DNA of 64,000 bases from a virus. A program made the translations under genes and the position numbers. The notes beneath the pieces were generated by a model, which was given only the letters and a program-made list of their open reading frames with translations, had not been told where the DNA came from and made no database searches. The first letter of the stretch is position 1. Every line of letters begins with the position of its first letter. Where the stretch lies: positions 1 to 64,000 of IMG/VR virus record IMGVR_UViG_3300029444_000365; one strand, given 5' to 3'. Of the stretch, positions 7,062 through 64,000 are shown piece by piece.

Positions 7062-8450
7062 TTAATACTCTATCCAACCATCTGTAATACCAGTCATCCA
7101 ATAAATAAGATCTTCTCTATCATTTTTTAATCTTCCATCTATTACACGAGTTAAGATTTCATTGAGCCAGTATCCAACTTCTTTTCCACTTTTAATGAGC
7201 ATTGTATCCATTACATCTTTTCCATTAACTGCTAAATCCTTTAGAGAAAAACATTCATCGTCCTGTAAAACTTCTTCCAAAATATATCCGATATTGTCAA
7301 TCTTCTGTAATCTTGTTTCCTGATTAATGTCTGCTTGTGCTTTAATATCAGCTCTACGAACATTTAATAACCTTCTGAACTGTTCTTCTCCAATTTTATT
7401 AAGCCATCTCTTGACATATTTCTTCCCCATCTCAAAAGTTGTATCATGATAATAAACAAGCTGCACTACTTTTTCTCTTGTATCATTATCAAAACGAAGT
7501 CTTTTCATAATTGTATCAGTCATATCAGCACTGACTCTTCCATGACCTTTAAAATGTCTAATACCATCTTCTCCATCCTGATAACAATGTGGTTTTCCTA
7601 TGTCATGAAAGAACACCGCTAATGATGTAATTAAATCTATTGAATTTAAGTCGGGTTCACAATCACATTCATAAGCTTGTACTGCATGTACTGTATGATT
7701 CCATACATCATAAATGTGATATGGATTATTCTGTTGAAAGCCAAGCATATCTTTAATTTCAGGAATGAACAACGAGAATACTTCACGGAATAATCCTATC
7801 TGTATATAAAACTCGCTTGATAATGCAATCTTACAGAACTCACTGTTGATTCTCTCAATAGATATATTCTCTAAATTCTTATACATTTTATGAATATTAA
7901 AACTCACATCAGAATCAACCACAAATCCCAGTTGTGAAGCAAACCGAATAGCACGTAAAATTCTTAAAGCATCTTCCGAAAATCTATCCTCTGCTCTACC
8001 AACACATCTGATTTTATAATGCTCAATATCTTCCATACCATTAAACGGATTTACAAGACCAACTTCATCATTGTATGCCATCGCATTGATTGTAAAATCT
8101 CTACGCTTCAAATCTTCTTTAAGACTTCGTGTAAATGTTACGCTATCAGGTCTACGACTATCTGAGTAATTACCGTCAATTCTGTAAGTGGTGCATTCAT
8201 ATCCTTCACCGTCAATTACAATGGTAATAGTTCCATGTTGTAAACCAGTTTCAATAATTCTCTTGTCCTTGAATACTTCCATCATTTCATCTGGTGTGGC
8301 AGAAGTTGTAATGTCGTAATCGTGAATTGGTCTGCCAAGAATACTATCTCTCACTGCACCACCACATAAAAATGCCTCATATCCATTATTCTGTAAAGTA
8401 TGAATAATTTCATTTGCACCAGATGGAATTTCAATTTTCAATTTCTTCAT
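7062..8450 (-). CDS. cca: CCA-adding tRNA nucleotidyltransferase with C-terminal HD domain
   Basis: GGAVRD..DxD head motif (LCGGAVRDSILGRPIHDYDITT), RRDFTINA, HD motif FFHDIGK; 462 aa. Confidence 0.85.
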   Translation of the reverse strand: MKKLKIEIPSGANEIIHTLQNNGYEAFLCGGAVRDSILGRPIHDYDITTSATPDEMMEVFKDKRIIETGLQHGTITIVIDGEGYECTTYRIDGNYSDSRRPDSVTFTRSLKEDLKRRDFTINAMAYNDEVGLVNPFNGMEDIEHYKIRCVGRAEDRFSEDALRILRAIRFASQLGFVVDSDVSFNIHKMYKNLENISIERINSEFCKIALSSEFYIQIGLFREVFSLFIPEIKDMLGFQQNNPYHIYDVWNHTVHAVQAYECDCEPDLNSIDLITSLAVFFHDIGKPHCYQDGEDGIRHFKGHGRVSADMTDTIMKRLRFDNDTREKVVQLVYYHDTTFEMGKKYVKRWLNKIGEEQFRRLLNVRRADIKAQADINQETRLQKIDNIGYILEEVLQDDECFSLKDLAVNGKDVMDTMLIKSGKEVGYWLNEILTRVIDGRLKNDREDLIYWMTGITDGWIEY

Positions 8451-10356: not shown

Positions 10357-12414
10357 TTAAAACTTAATCTTCATTACACGCTCTGTTGCGCCCTTAACCT
10401 TAACAACTAAATCTGCTCTCTTTGTCATAGAGAATCCAATTCCTGAAAGCTGATCATCAGTATCTTCTACATGGCACTTAGCACCTAAAGCCTCAAATAC
10501 TCTCTTGTGCTTTTCAAGGTCACTCTTTAAGAACTCATTGTAATAGCCATTAGGATCTTCGCTATTTACACAATCCTTCAGGAAAAAGAATAAATGTCTA
10601 TGACCAATTCCATCCTGCTCATCAAAATAATTTGGACTATAACTAATTACTGATACAGGAACAAACTGATTAGTGCTTACACCCCAAATCTCACGACTTG
10701 AGATAGATGAACTTCCAGATAACTTTTCCTTAATTGAGAAGTTGCCATTCTTGTCAAGTGTTACCTCTGCCACCTGAACTTTCTCACCAGTTCTCATAGG
10801 ATTGCTATAATCAAATGAATAAATCTCTCCATTGAACTCAACTTCTGCTCTAAATCCATGTCTTACTGCACCTGAATACTGATGTACAAAGAACTTATAA
10901 ACACCTGGTTTCATTCTTGACAGGTCTTCCCAAGTAATATTCTCTACTGCAACCTTTCTATCTGGATGAATAATATCAACGTCTAACTGACCACCCATTC
11001 TTGAAACACTTGGCTTTCTACAATTACTAAAGAAAATTTCATTCTCATCTGGCTCAATACAATGTGCATCAAGGTCGTAATTATCATGACCATCTTCGTT
11101 CCACTGAATAGAAAATCTGAGTACACCGTCAACATTACCGCCAGCAGCTTTTACATTCTGTTTCATATCAGAATCAGTAATGTTTCCTGAATAAGCCCAA
11201 GACAATCCATTATTCCACTTGAACATTGTCTTAGCGTCTGGATTAACAGGTGCAACCATAGAAACAAAATTCTTCTCATGCTTATTCTCTACAAAAGCTT
11301 CAATTTCTTTTGCGGTTGGAAGTACCTTATCAATGAAATCCTGTGCTGAAATCTCTTCAACCTTAGAAAACTTCTTAGGACTTACAGCAACATCCTTTTC
11401 CATCTGACCAAAAATATCATCTGCACCAACCATTCTTCTTGCAGCACTCTTATTTGAGAACAGTACATTATTTACAGTAATATCATTCAGATTAGCAAAT
11501 CTTCTCTGTAATGAATCCATATATCCAAGCTCTGTAATGGTCTTCTTTGCATCCTCAAGCATTTTCTTTGTAAAAATAGCCTTTGGTCTTTTATAGTTGC
11601 TCGGTGCTGTAATCTGCTCATACTTCTTAACTGCTGTGTCAAGATCCATATCCTCACTTACATTAATAAGAAGTGTTCCAATAGAATGATTTCTAATTCT
11701 ACCGATAGCCATACCTGCTGTTACCGACTTCTCCCAAGCATATAAATCCTTTTCAGTATCAGAAGTCAGCTTATCATATTCTTTCTTATACTTCTTGAAC
11801 TCTGTGAGTACACCTTTCCACTCTTCGCCCTTGTAAAGTGTATTTGAATTGATAAGTTCAAGAATTGTATCGAGTGCATCCATAGTAATTTCATCAAGAG
11901 AACGCTTAAATACATTTCTTGTGTCTCTGAACTGTCCCTTAACTTCCTCGTTTGAACGGCTACTTCTATTTACGAACTTGCTTGGAAGTTCTAAGAAAAA
12001 GTGATCCCACTGATGAGACTTTCCATTGATTTCCTCAAAATTAAAATCTGTACCAATCTTAGGGAACTTAGTTGTATAAATATCTGTAACTGTATGAGCT
12101 TTTACGAAAGCATCAAGTGCATCACATACTGGCTGATATGTTGTATCACCAAGATTCAGTTCCCAAATCGTATGAATCTGGTTATCCTTGATAGTTACAG
12201 CAGAACCAATATTCTTAATAAACTGTCTACAACAACTACAATCATGTTCTCTACGCTCTCTGAAAATCTCATTTGTACCAGCAGGGAAGCTATCAAGATA
12301 TGTATTCCATAATTCATCCTTATCTACATTTACCTCAAATAAATGTGTTGCCTCTTTCTGCATTTCATCGAAGTGCTTCTGTAATGCCTTCTTAAATTTC
12401 ATAAATCCATCCAT
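10357..12414 (-). CDS. large hypothetical protein (685 aa)
   Basis: long uninterrupted ORF; CSCC cluster near N-terminus; no family recognised. Confidence 0.6.
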   Translation of the reverse strand: MDGFMKFKKALQKHFDEMQKEATHLFEVNVDKDELWNTYLDSFPAGTNEIFRERREHDCSCCRQFIKNIGSAVTIKDNQIHTIWELNLGDTTYQPVCDALDAFVKAHTVTDIYTTKFPKIGTDFNFEEINGKSHQWDHFFLELPSKFVNRSSRSNEEVKGQFRDTRNVFKRSLDEITMDALDTILELINSNTLYKGEEWKGVLTEFKKYKKEYDKLTSDTEKDLYAWEKSVTAGMAIGRIRNHSIGTLLINVSEDMDLDTAVKKYEQITAPSNYKRPKAIFTKKMLEDAKKTITELGYMDSLQRRFANLNDITVNNVLFSNKSAARRMVGADDIFGQMEKDVAVSPKKFSKVEEISAQDFIDKVLPTAKEIEAFVENKHEKNFVSMVAPVNPDAKTMFKWNNGLSWAYSGNITDSDMKQNVKAAGGNVDGVLRFSIQWNEDGHDNYDLDAHCIEPDENEIFFSNCRKPSVSRMGGQLDVDIIHPDRKVAVENITWEDLSRMKPGVYKFFVHQYSGAVRHGFRAEVEFNGEIYSFDYSNPMRTGEKVQVAEVTLDKNGNFSIKEKLSGSSSISSREIWGVSTNQFVPVSVISYSPNYFDEQDGIGHRHLFFFLKDCVNSEDPNGYYNEFLKSDLEKHKRVFEALGAKCHVEDTDDQLSGIGFSMTKRADLVVKVKGATERVMKIKF

Positions 12415-19171: not shown

Positions 19172-19246
19172 CTAGGCTGGTGGGACTTGAACCCACAAAA
19201 CCTGCGGTCAAAGCGCAGTGCGTCTAACCAATTTCGCCACAGCCCA
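19172..19246 (-). tRNA. tRNA-Gln (anticodon UUG), no encoded CCA
   Basis: hand-folded cloverleaf: acceptor UGGGCUG/CAGCCUA with U1-A72, U8, D-loop GG, anticodon stem CUGCG/CGCAG, loop CUUUGAC, T-arm GUGGG-UUCAAGU-CCCAC, G73. Confidence 0.7.
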
Positions 19247-24588: not shown

Positions 24589-24715
24589 CGTTAGTGGATT
24601 AAACTATGGTAGAACTATAGCAGCTACACATTCTGCTCTTACAAGGCAATATGTATGTACAAAGAAACAAGTACCTTGCGTACTGCACTTACATCGGGTG
24701 TGATTCAGTGCATAA

Positions 24716-24787
24716 CGGGGCTACTGGGATTCGAACCCAGAAATACATGGATCAAAACCATGTGCCTTGCCATTTGGCGATAACCCT
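24716..24787 (-). tRNA. tRNA-Gln (anticodon UUG), no encoded CCA
   Basis: AGGGUUAUCGCCAAAUGGCAAGGCACAUGGUUUUGAUCCAUG...GGGUUCGAAUCCCAGUAGCCCCG; close to bacterial tRNA-Gln, unpaired 1:72, G73. Confidence 0.75.
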
Positions 24788-24845
24788 ATAATTTATTAAA
24801 TTTTGATTAAATATGTGAAAAATATGCTGAATTGCTTGAATTTAA

Positions 24846-52022: not shown

Positions 52023-52968
52023 AAATAGTCCTTCCATCCTAGTTTTAACGTGGGGACATCCACGAAAAAAAATAAATAAGTTTCAATGTTTTTTTTACTG
52101 GAATAATTCCAGCGACTGCGCTATAATGGAATTGAACCACTACAAAAGATTTTATAAAAATCCAATGGTGCCAACTAGCGCACTATTCACCGACTAAGGT
52201 TACTTATATTTTTTTAAACCGATTGAACTAAAACAAGTTTTCGGAGATTTTAAAACTTGAGTTTTTCGCACTAGCTCATACGGATATAAGCTATTTTGTA
52301 AACCAGTATAAAACCAAAATCTAACAATTAAATGTTTTTTACTGGCTTGTATGTAAAATCTGTACGAATACAGATTATAGAAAAGTTGTGCTATGTATTG
52401 GTACTTGCTAACGGATATATGCTGTATATACATTAGCTTGCGCCCCGTCAAATATGTTTAGGTAAAATTAGTTCATGCCCCTGAACTTGCTAACTACATC
52501 TCATGCAATAGCTGTCTGTAATGTTATTATATAGGTTTACCAAGGTTTACACCTACAATTCTATTAGTACCATTCTACCATTCTACGGTGGTACTAAGAC
52601 AGTTAAGTTCGCTGTCGTGGCTTTAGTCTATATAACCGTTTTGACATACGTTTTAAATACGTCTATTCCGTCATCTGCTGTGCGGTGCTTCGCTCGTGTG
52701 GTCTATGACCTTTTTATTATAGCTGAGCAAATAGCTATCTTGCTATCATGTAGCAAGTGGTACTTTATTAACTTGTCAATCACTACTGAATGAAGTAGTA
52801 ATTAGGTTTCCGACACCCTTAACGTATGGACTTATAAAAAGGGTTTTGCCCCTTGCCCTTTCGGACAAGTCAATAATAATACAAATTTTGGGATTTTGCA
52901 ATACATTTTTTAGGATTTTTATTATTTTGTTAAAATTGTATAATTTTAGTATAGTTTTGGTGTGGGTT

Positions 52969-53049
52969 ATTGTGAATTATTCACAATTTGTTGATAACTA
53001 TGTGGATAAGTTTTAATTGATTGTTGATAACTTATAAAAATGTGGATAA
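52969..53049. promoter_or_regulatory. 19-bp perfect palindrome ATTGTGAATTATTCACAAT followed by four direct DnaA-box-like 9-mers (2x TGTGGATAA = rc TTATCCACA; 2x TGTTGATAA = rc TTATCAACA)
   Basis: seen directly in the 1.6-kb non-coding hub. Confidence 0.5.
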
Positions 53050-53564
53050 ACTAACGATAACAAAACTATATCAGATAATAATATCAATACTATATAACAT
53101 AGTTTTTAAAACTACATATAATGGTTTTTATAGTTCTAAAAAGAATGTATAATATATATCTATTATCCATTGTTTTGCCTAATTGGGGGTAGTTAAAACT
53201 AATTAATAAGGCTGGAAATGCAGCAAGCCCTATAGCTGATTCATCCACACACCAACTCAAAAATCCATCCTTCCCCAATCCTCAAAAATCCCAACAAAAT
53301 CAAGCAAAATCCCAAATTCTCTCCTCCAAACCACTTATCGTACCCCATATCGTCAAAACCCACTAAAATCAAGCATTTTCCTTGCTTTACAACCCAAAAA
53401 TCAAACCTTCCTCTCACCAAAAATTCATCCATAAATCCAAAATCTTCCTTATTTATAGGTACTTTTAACGATAACGTTTTTCACCTCAAAATCGCCCAAA
53501 TCATCTCTCACCACACTCCTCACATAGGGGGGTACTCAAAAAACTACACACAAAATCACTCCAA

Positions 53565-53585
53565 TAAGAGAATAACTATATAACC
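53565..53585 (+). promoter_or_regulatory. AGAGAATA-type promoter-like motif (ATAAGAGAATAACTATATAAC) upstream of 53622 gene
   Basis: one of 6-7 related copies upstream of plus-strand genes. Confidence 0.35.
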
Positions 53586-53621
53586 AATACAAAAATAATT
53601 ATTCAACTTAAAGGAGAAAAC

Positions 53622-54599
53622 ATGAATACATATCTAATACCAACAACAGCAGCTTATTGCTATGAACCTTATGATCATATCTATCTCGCATATGCCAACA
53701 CTCCACTAGAAGCATATAGAAAAGCACAAACAGAATTACAAGGTGAATACATACCACAAAAATTACAAAAATATGAATCATACTCATTTGAATTATATAA
53801 GCCAAATGACACTGCTACTTTCCCATTTCCAGAATCTCAAAAATATGATATACTTACAGAAGCGTTTAAGAATACAAAAGGAGCTGAGAATATGGGACAT
53901 TTTAATGTAAATTGGAATGAATATACTGAAGTTTTATCTAAAAAAGCAGATAAAGAAATTTGGTCAAATCCGACTTATCCTAATAATGGTATATTAACTA
54001 ATTATCTAGTTCATACCTATAAACGTCTTAGAACAGAAAGACAAATTATAAGAAAAGATAATTATGCTTTATTTAATACAGGACTCTTTACCAAGTATTA
54101 TGAATCAATATATGCGTATTCTGATCAGGAGTATAATGTATCATTTCTTACTGGACATGAATTAAATCAACATGGAATATCTGAACGTCCACAAAAAGCT
54201 AATTATTTTGAAGATCCTTCTCTTCTATTGTTTGATTGGCATTACCCAATAGATATACATTTCAAGCATATTTTGGAAGATGAAAAGAATAAAGAAAGAT
54301 TACCAAAAGGATTTTTAGAAAAAGAAAATAAAATGTGTATCTTAACAGGCGCAGTTGAATTAATGAAACGTAGAGTTTCAGCAAACTATAAATTAGCAAT
54401 TCCACAATGTTATGAAGATAAAATTCAATTATTACTTCCTTTATGTTTAGACACAGACGAAGGAAAACCTGATTTAGCTCTTGCAGTCACAAAATTAGAT
54501 AATTGTTATCAAGGATACACATGTTTAACACTTGATATGGCATATAATAATGCTCGTCTTATAGCTAAACCAGAGTCTAGTTGGTTATATTCTAAGTAA
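53622..54599 (+). CDS. hypothetical protein (325 aa)
   Basis: strong RBS AAAGGAGAAAAC; no family recognised. Confidence 0.6.
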   Translation: MNTYLIPTTAAYCYEPYDHIYLAYANTPLEAYRKAQTELQGEYIPQKLQKYESYSFELYKPNDTATFPFPESQKYDILTEAFKNTKGAENMGHFNVNWNEYTEVLSKKADKEIWSNPTYPNNGILTNYLVHTYKRLRTERQIIRKDNYALFNTGLFTKYYESIYAYSDQEYNVSFLTGHELNQHGISERPQKANYFEDPSLLLFDWHYPIDIHFKHILEDEKNKERLPKGFLEKENKMCILTGAVELMKRRVSANYKLAIPQCYEDKIQLLLPLCLDTDEGKPDLALAVTKLDNCYQGYTCLTLDMAYNNARLIAKPESSWLYSK

Positions 54600-55532: not shown

Positions 55533-56651
55533 ATGGAGAATAAAACTATAGGTACATCATACATGTACCTAAATGAAACCATCAATTTAAAACATATGTA
55601 TTTAAATCAACCAATAACAATCAAACAAAAGAAAGAAGGAATTATTATAATTGGGGTATATTCTATAACAAATTTGAAAACTAAAAAATTATATATTGGA
55701 GAAAGTCTTGATATTGATAAAAGATGGATTAACCATAAAAATGATCTTTTAAATAACCAACACGCTAATTATTATCTTCAACAAGATTTTAATAAGTTTG
55801 GGAAGGCATTTTTTAAATTTGAAGTTCTGCAAGAAGTTGAAAGAGATAGTATCACTATTACTCAATCCAAATTATTGATGTTAGAAAATGCTTATATAGA
55901 AAAATATAAAAATGAAGATTATGAATTATATAACATAGAAAATACACTAGAAGATGTTCTTTCAAATAAAAGGAAATTATTGGTTTGCGAAGAAATTGCA
56001 AATTATGTTGTAGTGTCTCAATTTTTAAGAAATAAATATGTATATGATTATACAAATAAAAGATTTAATTATTGTCAAAGAGATACAATTGAAAATTTAA
56101 TATTATCTAATTCTTCCATCAAAGGGAAAGAAAAAGCAAAGCAAGTTGCAAACATAATATTAAAAGAGTTAATTGATCAGAATTTATATGAAAACTTTAT
56201 AATAGAAAACACTTACTCTATTTATCTATATCATAAAATTCAAGAACGTAAAATTATAGAAATTAATTCTAAAGGTCGAGAATATATATTAAATCATTAT
56301 GACTTTAATTCGTTTTTATTGAGAAAAAGAACTTCTGAAACCAAATTTTATATACAACAATATCCCTCTGAAAAGAAAATTAAACCAGAAGATCAAAATA
56401 GAATACAAGATGTTTGGCATAAACTTAAAGATAAATGCATTTTACCACCAGAAAATAAATACAATGATTTTCGAGATATGCTTATAAAATTAAATTTAAT
56501 TATTATTGATAATAATAAGAGAACACGAGCAACTGAATTTGCAATGAAAAATAAATATTTTTTAGTTGTTAAATATAATAAAGCTAAAGATATTTATCAA
56601 TATGTTATATCTCAAGATGGTTTAAGGTATATTTTAGCAAATATAAAATAA
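55533..56651 (+). CDS. GIY-YIG homing-endonuclease-like protein (372 aa)
   Basis: GVYSITNLKTKKLYIGESLDIDKRWINHKN = GIY...YIG..R..H/N motif; long DNA-binding-type tail. Confidence 0.7.
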   Translation: MENKTIGTSYMYLNETINLKHMYLNQPITIKQKKEGIIIIGVYSITNLKTKKLYIGESLDIDKRWINHKNDLLNNQHANYYLQQDFNKFGKAFFKFEVLQEVERDSITITQSKLLMLENAYIEKYKNEDYELYNIENTLEDVLSNKRKLLVCEEIANYVVVSQFLRNKYVYDYTNKRFNYCQRDTIENLILSNSSIKGKEKAKQVANIILKELIDQNLYENFIIENTYSIYLYHKIQERKIIEINSKGREYILNHYDFNSFLLRKRTSETKFYIQQYPSEKKIKPEDQNRIQDVWHKLKDKCILPPENKYNDFRDMLIKLNLIIIDNNKRTRATEFAMKNKYFLVVKYNKAKDIYQYVISQDGLRYILANIK

Positions 56652-59526: not shown

Positions 59527-59991
59527 ATGGCTGGTATAGTTGAAAAAGAAACCAATTTTTATCTATATAAGATTATAGATAAAGACGAATTAGTGTATAT
59601 TGGGAAATCAACTAATATTGATAATAGAATTGAAGTTCATAGCGTTATAAATAATCATTTTGATAAAAACACGTATTTTATATGTAGAGGAGAAAGTATA
59701 TCAAATTTGGTTATTTATATTGCAAATGTTCCTGACGAGTATCTTTTGTCAATATATGAAATAACATTAATTTCAAAATATAAACCACTATATAATAACA
59801 GCGACAAGTATGATACAAAACATCTATTAAAGTTACCAAAAATAAATTGGTTTCCATATGTATCAAAAGAAAATTGTGAAGCAATTTATAACATGAAAAC
59901 AGGCAAGATTATTGATACTTGTTTAATAGATACACCACTAAAAAGATGGAATATTTTAAAAGATTTACATATGGAGGAAATTAAATGTTAG
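59527..59991 (+). CDS. small GIY-YIG-like endonuclease (154 aa)
   Basis: NFYLYKIIDKDELVYIGKSTNIDNRIEVH; AAGGAGGA RBS. Confidence 0.55.
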   Translation: MAGIVEKETNFYLYKIIDKDELVYIGKSTNIDNRIEVHSVINNHFDKNTYFICRGESISNLVIYIANVPDEYLLSIYEITLISKYKPLYNNSDKYDTKHLLKLPKINWFPYVSKENCEAIYNMKTGKIIDTCLIDTPLKRWNILKDLHMEEIKC

Positions 59992-62753
59992 ATACACAGA
60001 TTAATATGTATTCTGTTGATACAGGTCATTTTTATAGCAATCATGAAAAATACTTACATGAAATGAACTGTAAATACAGACGTGAAAGAAATTATGTAAA
60101 TAATATGCTTCCAAAATTAGAAGAAGAACTCGTAACGCAAGGTTATAACAAAGATGATTTTTCTGATTGGAAACGTTGTACCGTTGAAGACTACTATGAA
60201 CAAGAAAATGATTCTGTAAAAGAATATATGAAGTGGTGTTTGATTATAAAACACAAAAGAGAGAAAGCAAATTTATCAAAAGAAAAACTTTTGAATCTAT
60301 TATCAAATAAGACAATTCAAAAAGAGAATCTATCGAATAAAATCGAGTATTGCAAATCGCATAATATTCCATATAATAAAAAAATCGAATTAAGAGAGTT
60401 AAGAAAAGACGAACTAAATGATAATAATATCATTTCAGTATTTGAATCTTCCCTTACCCGTATTATCGGCATTAAAAAAGACGAACTAACAGACGCTCTT
60501 ATTGTAGTTCAAGTTTATTATTTTGATGTATTTAAAGATTTATCTTTTTATGGATTTATGTATAATGGCGAAAAATACAGATACTTTACATCTTCTGCTG
60601 GTCAAATTCGTAAGAAAAAAGCTGTTTTTATTAAAGAATCAGTATGGAATGAAGTTGAAAAGACAGTCATGTGTGGTCTTACTATTGATAAAATAAACTC
60701 AAAGGGTGGAAACAATGTAAATAAACATCTTGCATATATGGCATTGGCGAATTCAGCTACTGACCAGTGGAATGATTTTAATATAGACAGATGTATTGTT
60801 GTAGATGATTTTGAAACGAATGTTCCAGGAGAATTTGATTTTATTGATGAGACTGATTATTCGATTGAGAGAAAAACTGGTACTGTTCCGATTACTCATA
60901 CTGATGGAGCTGGCATGATGTTGCCAAGCGTAATGATGAAAAATACAATGTTTCGTGCGCCTTGGGTAAAAGGTTTATTGGGGGTATTTGATTTTAAAAA
61001 GTTTATTGAAGTGAACAACTGCTCTCCTATTATCACAGATATTTATGGACAAGACCATGATGTAATTGCTGAAGATATTAGAATAATTTTCACAAAAAGT
61101 CAATTTAAGATGTATAAGTTTTACGATTCATGGGATGAGTATAAGACATATTTTAAGCAATATCATTGTCAAGCTGGTAGATGCAACACTGAGGAAGATA
61201 GAATTAAAAATGCAAAAATCAATTATCAGATGTTACAAACTCTCACAAATGTAACAGACGAAGAGATTGATTTACTTACAAAGAAGTCTGTAGAACGAAT
61301 TACAAATATTTGTAACTCTGTTGATACCATGAAAGATATTCTTGGAATTACACCTTATAATACAAATATGACAGCTTTTCAAAAAGCAGTAAATATTTAT
61401 CCTGCTCTACTCAACGATACATATGCAAAAGACGTGATCCGTGAAGTAAAGAATAGCCTTTTAAAAAAATATAGAAGTGGAAAACTTGAAGTAAATGGAA
61501 AATATACTTTCTTACTTCCAGATTATTATGCAGCTTGTGAGTATTGGTTTGGGCACATTGATACACCTAAAGGATTGTTGGCAGACAAAGAGGTGTTTTG
61601 TTGGTTATTTAAACAATATGATAAACTTGACTGTCTAAGAAGTCCTCACCTCTACAAAGAACATGCTATTCGTTTTAATGTGGCGAATAAAGTATATGAG
61701 GAACGAGTTGATAAAATCAGAGAATGGTTTATAACAAATGCGGTATATACAAGTACATATGACTTGATTAGTAAAATTCTTCAGTTTGATGTTGATGGAG
61801 ATAAATCATTGGTGGTTGCTGATCCTGATTTTGTAAGAATCGCAGAACGTAATATGAATGGTGTTGTACCACTCTATTATAATATGCGTAAAGCTGAACC
61901 AAGAATTTTGAATAATCAGAGTATTTATGAAGGATTAAATGCGGCATTTACAGGTGGAAATATCGGTATTTATAGCAACAATATTTCAAAAATCTGGAAT
62001 AATGACGTATTTATCAATGGAACAGATGAGGAAAAAGAACATGCAACTAATTGTGTCAAGCGTTTATGCTGTCAAAATAATTTTGTTATTGATTACGCTA
62101 AGACATTATACAAACCTGAGTTTCCAGAAACAATTGGTGAAGAAATTAAAGAGTTTACCAATCAGAAACTTCCTGCATTCTTTGAATACGCCAAAGACAA
62201 GGAAAAATCACAAGTTGATGATAGAAATGATAGTTTTGTAAATAAACTCTACTCTCGTATTCCTAATAAATCAATTAATACAAGAGGTATGAAACTTGGA
62301 GAATTAAAATATAAGGATATGATGAAAAACCCTGATATTGTATGCTCTAAAGAAGTTTCTGATTTGTATGATGAGTTAAACAAGAAGTATCGTTATATGA
62401 TTAATATGAAGGATGAATATATTGATAATCTTCATTATGTAGCTTGTTCTATTAGAAACCAGTTTGCGGAGCTTGGATATTCGGAAGAAATGATTGCTGA
62501 TATGCTTGTGCAGTATTTGTATGAAGGGGAAAAACGTGGAAAACAATTATTTTGGTTTTGTTATGGTCAGTATGTAGTTGTCAATTTAGAGAAAAATCCA
62601 AATATTAAAAAGAAAAAGACTAAAATGATTCAGTGTATTGATTGTGGTGAATGGATTGAAGTTGATTTTATGTCCAAGTCATGTAGATGTGAACTTTGTC
62701 AGCATGAATATCGAAAACAGCTTGATCGAGAAAGAAAAAGAAAAAACAAGTAA
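59985..62753 (+). CDS. YonO-like single-subunit two-barrel (DPBB) DNA-dependent RNA polymerase, 922 aa
   Basis: LRSPHLYKEHA (beta-prime RxPxLH DPBB1 motif) ~50 aa upstream of QFDVDGDKSLVV (beta-prime NADFDGDQMAVH catalytic motif); size and phage context as SPbeta YonO. Confidence 0.6.
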   Translation: MLDTQINMYSVDTGHFYSNHEKYLHEMNCKYRRERNYVNNMLPKLEEELVTQGYNKDDFSDWKRCTVEDYYEQENDSVKEYMKWCLIIKHKREKANLSKEKLLNLLSNKTIQKENLSNKIEYCKSHNIPYNKKIELRELRKDELNDNNIISVFESSLTRIIGIKKDELTDALIVVQVYYFDVFKDLSFYGFMYNGEKYRYFTSSAGQIRKKKAVFIKESVWNEVEKTVMCGLTIDKINSKGGNNVNKHLAYMALANSATDQWNDFNIDRCIVVDDFETNVPGEFDFIDETDYSIERKTGTVPITHTDGAGMMLPSVMMKNTMFRAPWVKGLLGVFDFKKFIEVNNCSPIITDIYGQDHDVIAEDIRIIFTKSQFKMYKFYDSWDEYKTYFKQYHCQAGRCNTEEDRIKNAKINYQMLQTLTNVTDEEIDLLTKKSVERITNICNSVDTMKDILGITPYNTNMTAFQKAVNIYPALLNDTYAKDVIREVKNSLLKKYRSGKLEVNGKYTFLLPDYYAACEYWFGHIDTPKGLLADKEVFCWLFKQYDKLDCLRSPHLYKEHAIRFNVANKVYEERVDKIREWFITNAVYTSTYDLISKILQFDVDGDKSLVVADPDFVRIAERNMNGVVPLYYNMRKAEPRILNNQSIYEGLNAAFTGGNIGIYSNNISKIWNNDVFINGTDEEKEHATNCVKRLCCQNNFVIDYAKTLYKPEFPETIGEEIKEFTNQKLPAFFEYAKDKEKSQVDDRNDSFVNKLYSRIPNKSINTRGMKLGELKYKDMMKNPDIVCSKEVSDLYDELNKKYRYMINMKDEYIDNLHYVACSIRNQFAELGYSEEMIADMLVQYLYEGEKRGKQLFWFCYGQYVVVNLEKNPNIKKKKTKMIQCIDCGEWIEVDFMSKSCRCELCQHEYRKQLDRERKRKNK

Positions 62754-63615: not shown

Positions 63616-63689
63616 CGCGGAATGACGAGCAATGGAAGCTCACTTGGCTCATAACCAAGAGTATGCAGGTTCGAGTCCTGTTTCCGCAA
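63616..63689 (+). tRNA. tRNA-Met/initiator-like (anticodon CAU), no encoded CCA
   Basis: anticodon stem CUUGG/CCAAG with loop CUCAUAA, T-arm GCAGG-UUCGAGU-CCUGU, acceptor CGCGGAA/UUCCGCA with C1:A72 mismatch (initiator-like), D-arm GAGC/GCUC; D-region offset unresolved by hand. Confidence 0.5.
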
Positions 63690-64000
63690 CTCTCCTACTT
63701 TTTGTAGGACGGTCGGTTTCGGATCGTGAGTTGTTGAAACTCAAAATAAACTTAGTAATAAGGATAAAGCAGGAATGTCTTTAGTTCGCATAAGACACTG
63801 CGACTGCGCATAGTAGTTTGACGGAAAACACAGATAATCTATACCAAACCTAAAACCAGAGGGCTACTGCTAATGATATGGCTTGGTAGGGGCGATGAAA
63901 AACGCTCTGTATTAACATGGAAACATGGGTATGATTACTGTCTTATTGGTGCGATTTCCGCAAGAAAAAGTGCTGATATTGATTGTTGCAACGTTTCTTA

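What the first reader, a model, noticed from the sequence alone, without database searches (positions are those of the whole stretch)
52038..53621. 1.6-kb non-coding hub at the strand switch: palindromes, four co-oriented DnaA-box-like 9-mers and a 330-bp G-depleted C/A-rich tract
Between the last minus-strand gene and the first plus-strand gene there is no credible ORF. Present instead are: CGTGG-ggacat-CCACG and CTGGAATAATTCCAG palindromes (52043-52058, 52089-52103); a 19-bp perfect palindrome ATTGTGAATTATTCACAAT (52969-52987); immediately after it TGTTGATAA, TGTGGATAA, TGTTGATAA, TGTGGATAA (rc = TTATCAACA/TTATCCACA, the DnaA box and a known variant) all in one orientation within 61 bp; then a ~330-bp stretch (53241-53575) with only ~10 G on the plus strand (ccatccttccccaatcctcaaaaatcccaacaaaatc...). 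This looks like a replication origin or DnaA-responsive control region (host DnaA recruitment or titration) next to an extremely strand-asymmetric element that could be a transcribed G-less leader/ncRNA or an unwinding element.
Basis: seen in the sequence. Interest (0 to 1): 0.65.

Follow-up and report, generated by a model that had tools for sequence, protein, structure and literature searches.

The report
Phage genome-end region, not an origin
The 1.6-kb gene-free hub is most likely where this large SPbeta-like gut phage cuts and starts packaging its DNA. A conserved, almost G-free, C-rich stretch begins exactly at the predicted cut site, and the DnaA-like boxes are an optional cassette found in only about a fifth of related phages.

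Summary
The window is a large SPbeta-like phage of gut Firmicutes with a YonO-type RNA polymerase; the one host clue is a Lachnospiraceae prophage.

The hub sits at the divergent strand switch upstream of the polymerase operon. In SPbeta this position holds the pac site or "genome opening point".

A composite box, GGGGGTA-N41/42-WAGC|N8-10-CCACAC, occurs once in the window (53185-53250), once in SPbeta's yonR-yonP gap and once in Psychrobacillus phage Perkons. In Perkons the 264-bp terminal repeat reported from PhageTerm analysis ends exactly at the "|". The BUCT083 record is opened at that same base, and the BUCT082 record starts 251 bp upstream.

The C-rich, G-poor tract starts within 10 nt of this boundary in 89 of 102 related loci. 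It is 200-890 nt long, about 3% G and 30% C, and carries conserved TATCG/CGATA motifs.

The DnaA-like 9-mers occur in only 20 of 98 distinct left flanks. Other lineages carry other short repeats at the same place.

Best reading: a genome-terminus and packaging region plus early promoters, with an undescribed subterminal tract that resembles T7's SRL array. The tract's mechanism is inferred. A host-DnaA-dependent origin is not supported but not excluded.

The parts
52038..52960 (.). Left non-coding arm. It is the probable long 5' region of the leftward operon. It holds the hairpin 52049-52064, the palindrome 52098-52112, a tRNA-like fold and a conserved non-coding block at about 52521-52640.
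   Evidence: No conserved ORF. Homologous only in the closest relatives; the left flanks fall into 39 mosaic clusters among 98.
52969..52987 (.). 19-bp perfect palindrome ATTGTGAATTATTCACAAT, a candidate operator. It overlaps the -35 hexamer of a leftward promoter-like site.
   Evidence: Exact match. Promoter-like site TTCACA-17-TATACT on the minus strand, 52976..52948, 10 of 12 matches.
52989..53049 (+). Four co-oriented DnaA-box-like 9-mers (TGTTGATAA / TGTGGATAA, twice each). This is a lineage-specific short-repeat cassette.
   Evidence: The same cassette lies at -248..-196 from the boundary in a subset of relatives. A different 3-box arrangement lies at -347..-323 in another lineage. It is absent from 73 of 98 distinct flanks, which carry other repeats such as TGTTACAAA x7 and TAAAGTGG x4.
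52916..52944 (+). Promoter-like module P1, ending in TGTATAAT (52937-52944) and pointing rightward.
   Evidence: Direct repeat D1 with 53125-53153. Consensus scan only; transcription was not shown.
53125..53153 (+). Promoter-like module P2, ending in TGTATAAT (53146-53153), 32 nt upstream of box 1 and pointing into the tract.
   Evidence: The block ...AATATATATCTATTA... is conserved in most gut relatives. Other lineages carry CACGG-N15-CCGTG around a -10-like TATAGAAAT at the same place.
53185..53201 (+). Box 1: GGGGGTAGTTAAAACTA.
   Evidence: Unique in the window. GGGGGT and AAAA are invariant in 100 aligned relatives, at a fixed 52-nt distance from the boundary. Also present in SPbeta and Perkons.
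53232..53253 (+). Terminus box ATAGC|TGATTCATCCACACACC. The predicted inner boundary of the terminal repeat, and so the predicted terminase cut, lies between 53236 and 53237.
   Evidence: The composite pattern is found once in the window and in 0 of 100 shuffles. It is found once each in SPbeta and Perkons. It aligns to the Perkons DTR end ...CCCTAAGC| and to the BUCT083 record opening ...CCCATAGC|. Homology to relatives starts at 53231/53232.
53237..53575 (+). C-rich, G-poor subterminal tract (core 53239-53457: 5 G in 219 nt; C 33-40% per 60 nt).
   Evidence: Conserved as a property and as sequence islands in all relatives. Also present in SPbeta and Perkons and in a Lachnospiraceae prophage.
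53335..53353 (+). TTATCGTACCCCATATCGT: two direct TATCG sites that contain two of the tract's few G residues.
   Evidence: TATCG is present in 84 of 84 distinct relatives at a median of +101 from the boundary. The double site is present in 75 of 84 and is invariant in alignment A1. The SPbeta tract has ATCGTAATCGCTATCGTAA.
53469..53475 (+). CGATAAC, the inverted partner of TTATCG, about 130 bp downstream.
   Evidence: CGATA[AT]C is present in 66 of 84 relatives at a median of +232. SPbeta has three TTACGAT(A/C) copies in the corresponding part.
53527..53549 (+). Box 2: GGGGGGTACTCAAAAAACTACAC, a partial repeat of box 1 that closes the tract.
   Evidence: A second box is present in 50 of 84 relatives at a median of +292.
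53550..53621 (+). Conserved segment before the gene (AATAAGAGAATAACTATATAACCAATAC...) and the RBS AAAGGAG.
   Evidence: Nearly invariant in alignment A1. No sigma-70-like site was scored here.
53622..54599 (+). First plus-strand gene, encoding a DUF3825 protein.
   Evidence: Pfam PF12873, E = 8e-57.
59985..62753 (+). YonO-type single-chain RNA polymerase gene, which marks the phage as SPbeta-like.
   Evidence: Pfam PF05183 and phrog_8308. 44% identity to SPbeta YonO, 43% to Perkons, 49% to C. botulinum phage D-1873.

Best explanation
The hub is the phage's genome-end and packaging-start region, combined with divergent early promoters and operators. It corresponds to the yonR-yonP intergenic region of SPbeta and to the terminal-repeat region of phage Perkons.

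Inferred mechanism:
1. During maturation, terminase recognises the conserved composite box (GGGGGTAG..AAAAC, then a fixed 52-nt distance, then ATAGC|TGATTCATCCACAC).
2. It cuts the concatemer between 53236 and 53237, and again a few hundred bp to the left. That second site could not be located here.
3. Virion DNA therefore carries a short direct terminal repeat.
4. Packaging then runs rightward through the C-rich tract into the RNA-polymerase operon.

The C-rich, G-poor tract is a subterminal cis element. Its closest analogue is the SRL array next to T7's terminal repeat. It carries conserved TATCG / CGATA protein-site-like motifs in a background from which G is excluded.

G is avoided even in the variable and inserted parts of the tract. 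The constraint therefore probably acts on a single strand. That strand could be RNA made from the promoter-like site just upstream, or DNA exposed during end processing. Either way it would lack stable hairpins, start codons and ribosome sites.

The four DnaA-like 9-mers are one of several interchangeable short-repeat cassettes in the variable DNA to the left of the boundary. They are binding sites for a specificity or regulatory protein, possibly host DnaA in this lineage.

Shown here: the homology, the unique occurrence, the sharp composition step and the conservation. Inferred: the cleavage at 53236|53237, the packaging direction and what the tract does.
For: Phage type and position:
- The window is an SPbeta-like phage.
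- The hub is the divergent switch upstream of the RNA-polymerase operon.
- In SPbeta-like phages the packaging start or 'genome opening point', with a precise block of about 250 bp, lies between yonR and yonP (bioRxiv 10.1101/2021.11.22.469490; PMC8270828).

The boundary:
- The composite pattern occurs once in the window and in 0 of 100 shuffles. It occurs once in the SPbeta yonR-yonP gap and once in Perkons.
- The Perkons 264-bp DTR was reported from PhageTerm analysis (PMC13245101) and is annotated in GenBank. It ends exactly at the aligned '|'.
- The BUCT083 record is opened at exactly CCCATAGC|ACTTCC.
- The BUCT082 record starts 251 bp upstream with CTTCGATTCCC. The Perkons DTR starts with CTTACGCTATTCCC.

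The tract:
- It begins within 10 nt of the boundary in 89 of 102 loci.
- Averaged over 74 distinct loci, G drops from about 20% to 4% and C rises from about 15% to 32% within one 50-nt bin.
- The same pattern is seen in SPbeta and Perkons and in a Lachnospiraceae prophage.
- The box occurs once per stretch of DNA returned, in at least 118 viral contigs of 9-217 kb.
- The tract stays next to the box, not next to the downstream gene, where an extra roughly 900 nt separates the tract from the DUF3825 gene.
- In SPbeta and Perkons a good sigma-A-type promoter lies just before the first gene, downstream of the tract (sequence read).
- T7's SRL, immediately inside its terminal repeat, is also G-poor and C-rich: 16 G and 50 C in positions 161-320.
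Against: - No virion DNA ends are available for this phage or any gut relative. The cut site is predicted only by homology.
- A profile of the box finds the right places in Perkons and SPbeta as their best hits, but with non-significant E-values (1.5 and 4.3). The exact pattern was written after seeing the three sequences.
- The outer boundary motif of SPbeta and Perkons is not found in the gut group.
- Only 2 of about 21 contigs cut short on the upstream side start within 10 nt of the boundary. A mosaic junction could also break assemblies there.
- How the BUCT082 and BUCT083 records were opened is not documented in any paper I could read.
- Strand-pure composition has no established role in packaging.
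- A-tract phasing is inconclusive.
- A conserved promoter-like site points into the tract, so a role as RNA is not excluded.
Confidence: 0.6

Rival explanations
1. The tract is a transcribed, untranslated leader of the DUF3825 / RNA-polymerase operon, made by host RNA polymerase from the promoter-like site at 53146-53153. As C-rich, G-poor, unstructured RNA it loads the termination factor Rho. It therefore acts as a Rho-dependent attenuator or insulator that keeps the polymerase operon silent until induction. This could coexist with the terminus role.
For: - The tract is 330 nt with 33-40% C and 0-7% G, has one start codon on the sense strand and almost no predicted structure. The consensus fold is -8 kcal/mol over 643 columns.
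- A conserved promoter-like block lies 30-40 nt upstream of box 1 in most relatives.
- No intrinsic terminator lies between it and the gene.
- G is also avoided in lineage-specific insertions, which fits a constraint on a single strand.
Against: - In SPbeta and Perkons a strong promoter lies between the tract and the first gene, so there the tract is not the leader from the proximal promoter.
- The tract follows the terminus box, not the gene start.
- Transcription was not shown.
- The conserved TATCG/CGATA islands look like DNA sites.
Confidence: 0.2
2. One reading: the DnaA-like box cluster with the AT-rich DNA around it is a replication origin that depends on host DnaA, or a DnaA-responsive or DnaA-titrating control region.
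For: - There are two perfect and two one-mismatch DnaA boxes in one orientation within 61 bp. Only one other perfect box occurs in the 64 kb.
- The same consensus recurs in two different arrangements in two lineages.
- The boxes lie in the most AT-rich part of the hub.
- Arrays of short repeats at this position resemble origin iterons.
- The replication origin of SPbeta-type phages is unknown (PMC8270828).
- The cumulative skew minimum lies near the hub.
Against: - The boxes are absent from 73 of 98 distinct flanks of otherwise homologous hubs.
- I saw no DnaA-trio-like 3-nt repeat next to the boxes when reading the sequence.
- The skew change coincides with the gene-strand switch.
- The conserved part of the hub maps to virion DNA ends, not to the boxes.
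- The tract itself is G+C-rich for this genome, so it is not an unwinding element.
Confidence: 0.12
3. The tract has no function. It is a by-product of mutation, for example cytosine deamination on a bottom strand that is often single-stranded (which would turn top-strand G into A), or it is a compositional accident.
For: The top strand is poor in G and rich in A (38%), as such a bias would produce.
Against: - C is enriched two-fold, which deamination does not explain.
- The composition changes within 50 nt at a conserved box.
- Sequence islands are invariant across phages whose neighbouring protein is only 54-70% identical.
- In the more distant relatives the tract aligns at 70-77% identity, in the same range as the adjacent coding DNA (73-77%).
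Confidence: 0.04

Closest known systems
SPbeta (Spbetavirus) yonR-yonP intergenic region: the pac site or 'genome opening point' and the MrpR-controlled yonP promoter
   Same: - Same genomic position: the divergent switch just upstream of the operon that holds the YonO polymerase.
- Same box (GGGGGTA, 42 nt, TAGC, 10 nt, CCACAC), followed at once by a C-rich, G-poor tract of about 330 nt with ATCGTA/TACGAT motifs.
   Different: - Sequence identity outside the box and motifs is too low for BLAST.
- The first downstream gene differs: yonP in SPbeta, a DUF3825 gene here.
- SPbeta has one DnaA-like 9-mer (AGTGGATAA) just outside the presumed repeat, not four.
- The SPbeta literature describes headful packaging from a pac site. 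I found no mention of the G-poor tract in the papers I read.
Psychrobacillus phage Perkons: 264-bp short direct terminal repeats
   Same: - The repeat's inner end aligns base-for-base with the window's ATAGC|TGATTC box.
- GGGGGTA lies 52 nt before it.
- A 507-nt G-poor tract (5% G, 25% C) starts at the boundary, upstream of a YonO-type polymerase operon.
   Different: - Perkons also has a mirror-image tract, G-poor in the outward sense, on the other side of the repeat. This is weak or absent in the gut group.
- About 880 nt and a separate strong promoter lie between the tract and the first gene.
T7 concatemer junction: 160-bp terminal repeat plus the SRL array of CCTAAAG heptamers
   Same: A non-coding stretch immediately inside a short terminal repeat is G-poor and C/A-rich on the inward-reading strand: 16 G and 50 C in positions 161-320. 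Most of its G residues sit at the end of the repeated heptamer. Both phages encode their own RNA polymerase.
   Different: - T7's array is a clear tandem heptamer repeat, whereas the window's tract is not tandemly repeated.
- There is no sequence homology.
- To my knowledge the function of SRL is itself not settled.
- T7's right-hand array (SRR) shows little asymmetry.
Chromosomal and plasmid DnaA-box clusters (oriC, P1 oriR, B. subtilis DnaA-box clusters)
   Same: Several consensus TTATCCACA boxes lie close together in AT-rich non-coding DNA at a divergent switch.
   Different: - All four boxes are co-oriented.
- No DnaA-trio or defined unwinding element was seen.
- The boxes are not conserved among relatives and are interchangeable with unrelated repeats.
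Rho utilisation (rut) sites in long untranslated leaders
   Same: The stretch is long, C-rich, G-poor, unstructured and untranslated on the sense strand.
   Different: It is much longer than the roughly 80 nt Rho needs (my knowledge). It is tied to a DNA terminus box. Transcription and Rho dependence were not shown.

Membership tests
SPbeta-type genome terminus / packaging-start region | Lies in the divergent intergenic region upstream of the operon that encodes the YonO-type RNA polymerase | tested here: met
   Strand switch at 52038-53621; YonO homologue at 59985-62753 on the same strand as the tract. SPbeta layout; Perkons layout.
SPbeta-type genome terminus / packaging-start region | Sequence motif shared with phages whose ends are known, at the same spacing | tested here: met
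   GGGGGTA-N41/42-WAGC-N8-10-CCACAC occurs once each in the window, SPbeta and Perkons, and in 0 of 100 shuffles. Caveats: the pattern was defined after the fact, and the profile E-values were 1.5 and 4.3.
SPbeta-type genome terminus / packaging-start region | Virion DNA actually ends (or packaging actually starts) at this site | not testable with these tools
   No virion read data are available. Indirect evidence only: the Perkons DTR end, the BUCT083 and BUCT082 record ends, and two contigs that start 4-10 nt from the boundary.
SPbeta-type genome terminus / packaging-start region | Single copy per genome | tested here: met
   One match in the 64-kb window. One match per stretch of DNA returned, from at least 118 viral contigs. 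Whole genomes could not be scanned.
DnaA-dependent replication origin | Cluster of DnaA boxes | tested here: met
   Four boxes (2 perfect, 2 with one mismatch) in 61 bp.
DnaA-dependent replication origin | Adjacent AT-rich unwinding element or DnaA-trios | tested here: inconclusive
   The flanking DNA is AT-rich, but I saw no phased 3-nt repeat when reading 53050-53140. No dedicated tool was run.
DnaA-dependent replication origin | Boxes conserved in related replicons | tested here: not met
   Clusters in 20 of 98 distinct flanks; none in 73 of 98.
DnaA-dependent replication origin | Replication starts here (marker frequency, skew independent of gene orientation) | not testable with these tools
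   The skew minimum is near the hub but is confounded with the gene-strand switch.
Rho-dependent terminator / rut site | At least 80 nt of C-rich, G-poor, unstructured, untranslated RNA | tested here: met
   This holds only if the strand is transcribed.
Rho-dependent terminator / rut site | Transcribed, with Rho-dependent 3' ends downstream | not testable with these tools
   Only promoter-like consensus matches are available.
Structured non-coding RNA | Conserved secondary structure with covariation | tested here: not met
   RNAalifold gave -8.2 kcal/mol over 643 columns and -0.07 over the box region in 100 sequences. Rfam gave nothing for the tract.

The most novel reading that the evidence does not exclude
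The almost G-free, C-rich tract that begins at the terminal-repeat boundary is a previously undescribed class of cis element shared by SPbeta-like phages of Bacillus, Psychrobacillus and gut Firmicutes. It would act as a single strand. One possibility is RNA made from a promoter inside the terminal repeat, which couples transcription (or Rho loading) to terminase cutting, as T7 RNA polymerase pausing does at the T7 concatemer junction. Another is structure-free single-stranded DNA during end processing and circularisation. In this reading the interchangeable short-repeat cassettes beside it, including genuine host-DnaA boxes in about 20% of lineages, set which protein licenses the site.
Probability: 0.25. 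Interest if true: 0.65.

Novelty: new member of a known kind. Interest (0 to 1): 0.45.

Why it matters
- It places the probable DNA ends and packaging start of a large, uncultured family of 80-220 kb gut phages. At least 118 contigs carry the box. This helps to orient and complete metagenomic genomes.
- It gives a base-precise, testable prediction: a cut between 53236 and 53237.
- It links three separate observations as one conserved site: SPbeta's 'opening point with a 250-bp block', the Perkons terminal repeat and the BUCT082/083 record ends. This suggests that SPbeta-type phages have short exact terminal repeats of about 250 bp.
- It brings out a conserved strand-pure tract that I did not find mentioned in the SPbeta papers I read. 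The tract resembles T7's unexplained SRL array and could be a handle on how such ends are processed.
- It warns against calling origins from DnaA-box clusters alone.

Tried and rejected
- BLAST of the hub against 50,697 phage records found nothing useful. The link to SPbeta came through the polymerase protein.
- Rfam gave only a sub-threshold tRNA-like hit in the left arm and nothing for the tract.
- I tested whether box 1 is the YonO promoter. The published SPbeta YonO start site lies in a different gap (yonN-yonK). I placed it only roughly, from the published primers and my recollection of the prophage coordinates. That gap is not G-poor and shows no similar box. Rejected.
- Conserved RNA structure was not found. 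One apparent compensatory change (CAGC/GCTG to CTGC/GCAG) is outnumbered by broken cases.
- Hidden ORFs are not conserved.
- A-tract phasing as a sign of bent DNA was inconclusive, because the sequences are related to each other.
- The outer-boundary motif of SPbeta and Perkons (CTT.CG..ATTCCC) is not conserved in the gut group. A lone look-alike at 52659 is probably chance.
- C. botulinum phage c-st (404-bp repeats) and the Enterocloster and Thomasclavelia phages, which have distant polymerases, show no comparable box or C-rich tract.
- Contig ends as evidence of physical ends gave only weak support.
- A search of the paper library for how BUCT082/083 were opened found nothing.
Full report
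**What is in the window**

The region 52038-53621 separates about 52 kb of minus-strand genes from a plus-strand block.

The plus-strand block starts with a DUF3825 gene (53622-54599). About 6 kb further on it holds a 922-aa protein of the YonO / RdRP-like two-barrel RNA polymerase family. That protein matches Pfam PF05183 and phrog_8308. It is 44% identical to SPbeta YonO, 43% to Psychrobacillus phage Perkons and 49% to C. botulinum phage D-1873.

The minus-strand block carries a tyrosine recombinase, a C5 methyltransferase, a CCA-adding enzyme, Sir2 and many small ORFs. The window is therefore part of a large, low-GC, SPbeta-like temperate phage.

Relatives are abundant in human-gut viral and metagenomic contigs of 80-220 kb. 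One sits as a prophage in a Lachnospiraceae genome.

**Checking the observation**

All the features exist.
- Two of the palindromes are 6-9 nt away from the stated coordinates. They are really at 52049-52064 and 52098-52112. The 19-bp palindrome and the four DnaA-like 9-mers are exactly as described.
- Two of the three perfect DnaA boxes in the 64 kb lie in this 61-bp cluster.
- The tract 53241-53575 has 18 G rather than about 10. Its 219-nt core has 5. It is the most extreme G-poor, C-rich stretch in the window.
- No ORF in the gap is credible or conserved.
- The tract is not a tandem or low-complexity repeat.

**What is conserved**

In 49 loci found through the DUF3825 protein, DNA homology to the window begins abruptly at 53231/53232 in most relatives. 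It then continues through the tract into the gene. DNA to the left of that point is shared only with the closest relatives.

Every relative has a G-poor, C-rich tract, including those whose DUF3825 protein is only 54-70% identical. The tracts are 160-740 nt long with 2-5% G.

Alignment shows fixed islands in a background where G is avoided, even in lineage-specific insertions. The islands are:
- GGGGGT(A/G)..AAAAC
- ATAGC|TGATTCATCCACAC, exactly 52 nt after the G-run
- TTATCGTACCCCATATCGT
- CTTCCTTATTTA
- CGATAAC
- a second GGGGGTAC..AAAAAC box

A pattern built from the first two islands found at least 118 viral contigs, with one match in each stretch of DNA returned. Among these:
- The tract begins within 10 nt of the '|' in 89 of 102 loci. 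Its median length is 275 nt, with 3.2% G and 30% C.
- Averaged over 74 distinct loci, G falls from about 20% to 4% and C rises from about 15% to 32% within a single 50-nt bin at that point.
- TATCG is present in 84 of 84 distinct tracts at about +101. Its inverted partner CGATA(A/T)C is present in 66 of 84 at about +232.

**The link to phage DNA ends**

SPbeta has the same layout in its yonR-yonP divergent gap, upstream of yonP-yonO-yonN. It reads ...ATATGGGGGTATATTT...CCCATAGC|ACTTCCATTTCCACACCC.... A C-rich, G-poor tract of about 330 nt follows, with ATCGTAATCGCTATCGTAA and several TTACGAT(A/C) copies.

Perkons has ...GGGGGTATAAAAAT...CCCTAAGC|TCATCTATCCACACAGC..., followed by a 507-nt tract.

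The pattern GGGGGTA-N41/42-WAGC-N8-10-CCACAC matches once in each of the three phages and never in 100 shuffles of the window.

In Perkons, the paper reports 264-bp direct terminal repeats as the defined genome ends, from PhageTerm analysis of the sequencing reads (PMC13245101). The GenBank feature ends exactly at the '|'.

For SPbeta-like phages, Kohm et al. place the packaging start or 'genome opening point' between yonR and yonP. They describe a precise block of about 250 bp after it.

Two independent SPbeta-like records fit this:
- BUCT083 is opened exactly at CCCATAGC|ACTTCC.
- BUCT082 starts 251 bp upstream, with CTTCGATTCCC. This resembles the first bases of the Perkons repeat, CTTACGCTATTCCC.

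I conclude that the box marks the inner boundary of a short terminal repeat in this phage group. The window's equivalent lies between 53236 and 53237.

This rests on homology, with three caveats:
- A profile search alone gives non-significant E-values for Perkons and SPbeta, although the top hits are at the right places.
- I could not find the outer boundary in the gut group.
- Contig ends give only weak support: two contigs start 4-10 nt from the boundary.

**The DnaA-like boxes**

Among 98 distinct left flanks, 20 carry 3-4 co-oriented DnaA-like 9-mers and 73 carry none. The 20 fall into two arrangements, at -248..-196 as in the window and at -347..-323.

The left flanks fall into 39 mosaic clusters. 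Several carry other repeated short motifs at the same place: TGTTACAAA x7, TAAAGTGG x4 and TAGTTTGAGTATCAAA x3. In one case an otherwise homologous flank has the DnaA-like cassette swapped for another.

The boxes are therefore non-random, but they are an optional, exchangeable cassette and not the conserved core of the hub. They may well bind host DnaA in this lineage. Whether that would serve replication, regulation of the promoter-like sites P1/P2 or packaging specificity cannot be decided here.

In SPbeta the same intergenic region also holds a binding site for the master repressor MrpR at the yonP promoter (PMC10516654). An operator role for such repeats therefore has a precedent.

**What the tract does**

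The tract is always attached to the terminus box, not to the downstream gene. In SPbeta and Perkons a good promoter lies between the tract and the first gene. This argues against a simple leader role and for a role tied to the DNA end.

T7 offers an analogue. Its SRL array, immediately inside the 160-bp terminal repeat, is also G-poor and C/A-rich, and most of its G residues sit at the end of the repeated heptamer.

On the other hand, G is excluded across the whole tract, which points to a constraint on one strand. A conserved promoter-like block also points into the tract. The RNA would be an ideal Rho-loading substrate and is essentially unstructured.

I therefore rank the readings as follows:
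1. A subterminal packaging or end-processing element: about 0.6 for the terminus assignment, less for the exact role.
2. A Rho-dependent leader or insulator, which could coexist with the first: about 0.2.
3. A DnaA-dependent origin or control region: about 0.12.
4. No function: about 0.04.

The tract is not an unwinding element, because it is the most G+C-rich part of the hub.

**Novelty**

The kind of element is known: a packaging-start and terminal-repeat region in an SPbeta-like phage. This is a new member from uncultured gut phages.

What seems new to me:
- a base-precise conserved boundary box shared across Bacillus, Psychrobacillus and gut Firmicute phages;
- the observation that a strand-pure C-rich tract starts exactly there;
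- the interchangeable short-repeat cassettes, some of them DnaA-like, beside it.

I found no mention of the tract in the papers I could read.

Noticed in passing
window 52117-52181 (minus strand): tRNA-like element about 80 nt upstream of the first leftward gene. It scores 23.6 bits against Rfam tRNA, below the gathering score of 29. It has a perfect 7-bp acceptor stem and a T-arm, the D-arm is nearly missing, and the anticodon-loop-like sequence is UUUAUAA. ARAGORN does not call it. The fold z-score is -3.3. It could be a decayed tRNA, an attP remnant or a leader structure.
   Followed up: partly
window 52521-52640: Non-coding block that stays well conserved in relatives where the overlapping 90-aa ORF is broken. 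It contains TACCATTC x2.4 and the hairpin GTACCA...TGGTAC. It may be a small RNA or a protein-binding site.
   Followed up: partly
window 52830-52976 (minus strand): A leftward promoter-like site (TTCACA-17-TATACT, 10 of 12 matches) overlaps the 19-bp palindrome. About 100 nt downstream is a weak hairpin plus T-run (AAAGGGcaaggggcaaaaCCCTTTTTAT). This would give a small leftward RNA of about 100 nt. The terminator scan did not score it.
   Followed up: no
window 55533-56651 and 59527-59991: Two GIY-YIG homing-endonuclease-like genes lie in the polymerase operon, one directly abutting the YonO-type gene. In several SPbeta-like phages the yonO gene is split around such insertions.
   Followed up: no
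window 19172-19246, 24715-24788, 63616-63690: Two tRNA-Gln(UUG) genes lie in the minus-strand block and a tRNA-Met(CAU) gene lies just after the polymerase gene. A CCA-adding enzyme gene is at 7062-8450.
   Followed up: no
L056/L060 (Perkons junction), L185 (BUCT082 end): On the far side of the terminal repeat, Perkons has a C-poor stretch of about 240 nt, and BUCT082 has a C-poor last 300 nt (15 C, 80 G). Both virion ends therefore have a G-poor 5'-ended strand just inside the repeat. In the gut group this mirror tract is weak. In the window, 52881-53030 is C-poor.
   Followed up: partly
L055 about 10795-10803 (SPbeta): A one-mismatch DnaA-like 9-mer (AGTGGATAA) lies about 14 nt outside the point where the BUCT082 record begins, which is the presumed outer boundary of the repeat.
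   Followed up: no
L186 (T7 positions 1-340): T7's terminal repeat contains CCCCCATAGGGGGTACC, and it ends ...CCCTATCTGTTACAG| at the position where T7 RNA polymerase is known to pause (my knowledge). The window's box has GGGGGTAG and ...CCCTATAGC|. This is probably coincidence, but it is curious given the similar subterminal G-poor arrays.
   Followed up: no
L189 (metagenome contig ERZ1027215.4371), positions 1-47: The contig begins with a Nextera adapter (…AGATGTGTATAAGAGACAG) joined to phage sequence equivalent to window 53116, which is 121 nt left of the predicted boundary. It is either adapter contamination or a hint of a read-start hot spot.
   Followed up: no
L055 5154-6834 (SPbeta yonN-yonK gap): SPbeta has a second large gene-free gap of 1.7 kb. 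It holds the YonO start site and an unannotated RNA (PMC5467207). It is not G-poor. The window ends before the equivalent place could be examined.
   Followed up: partly
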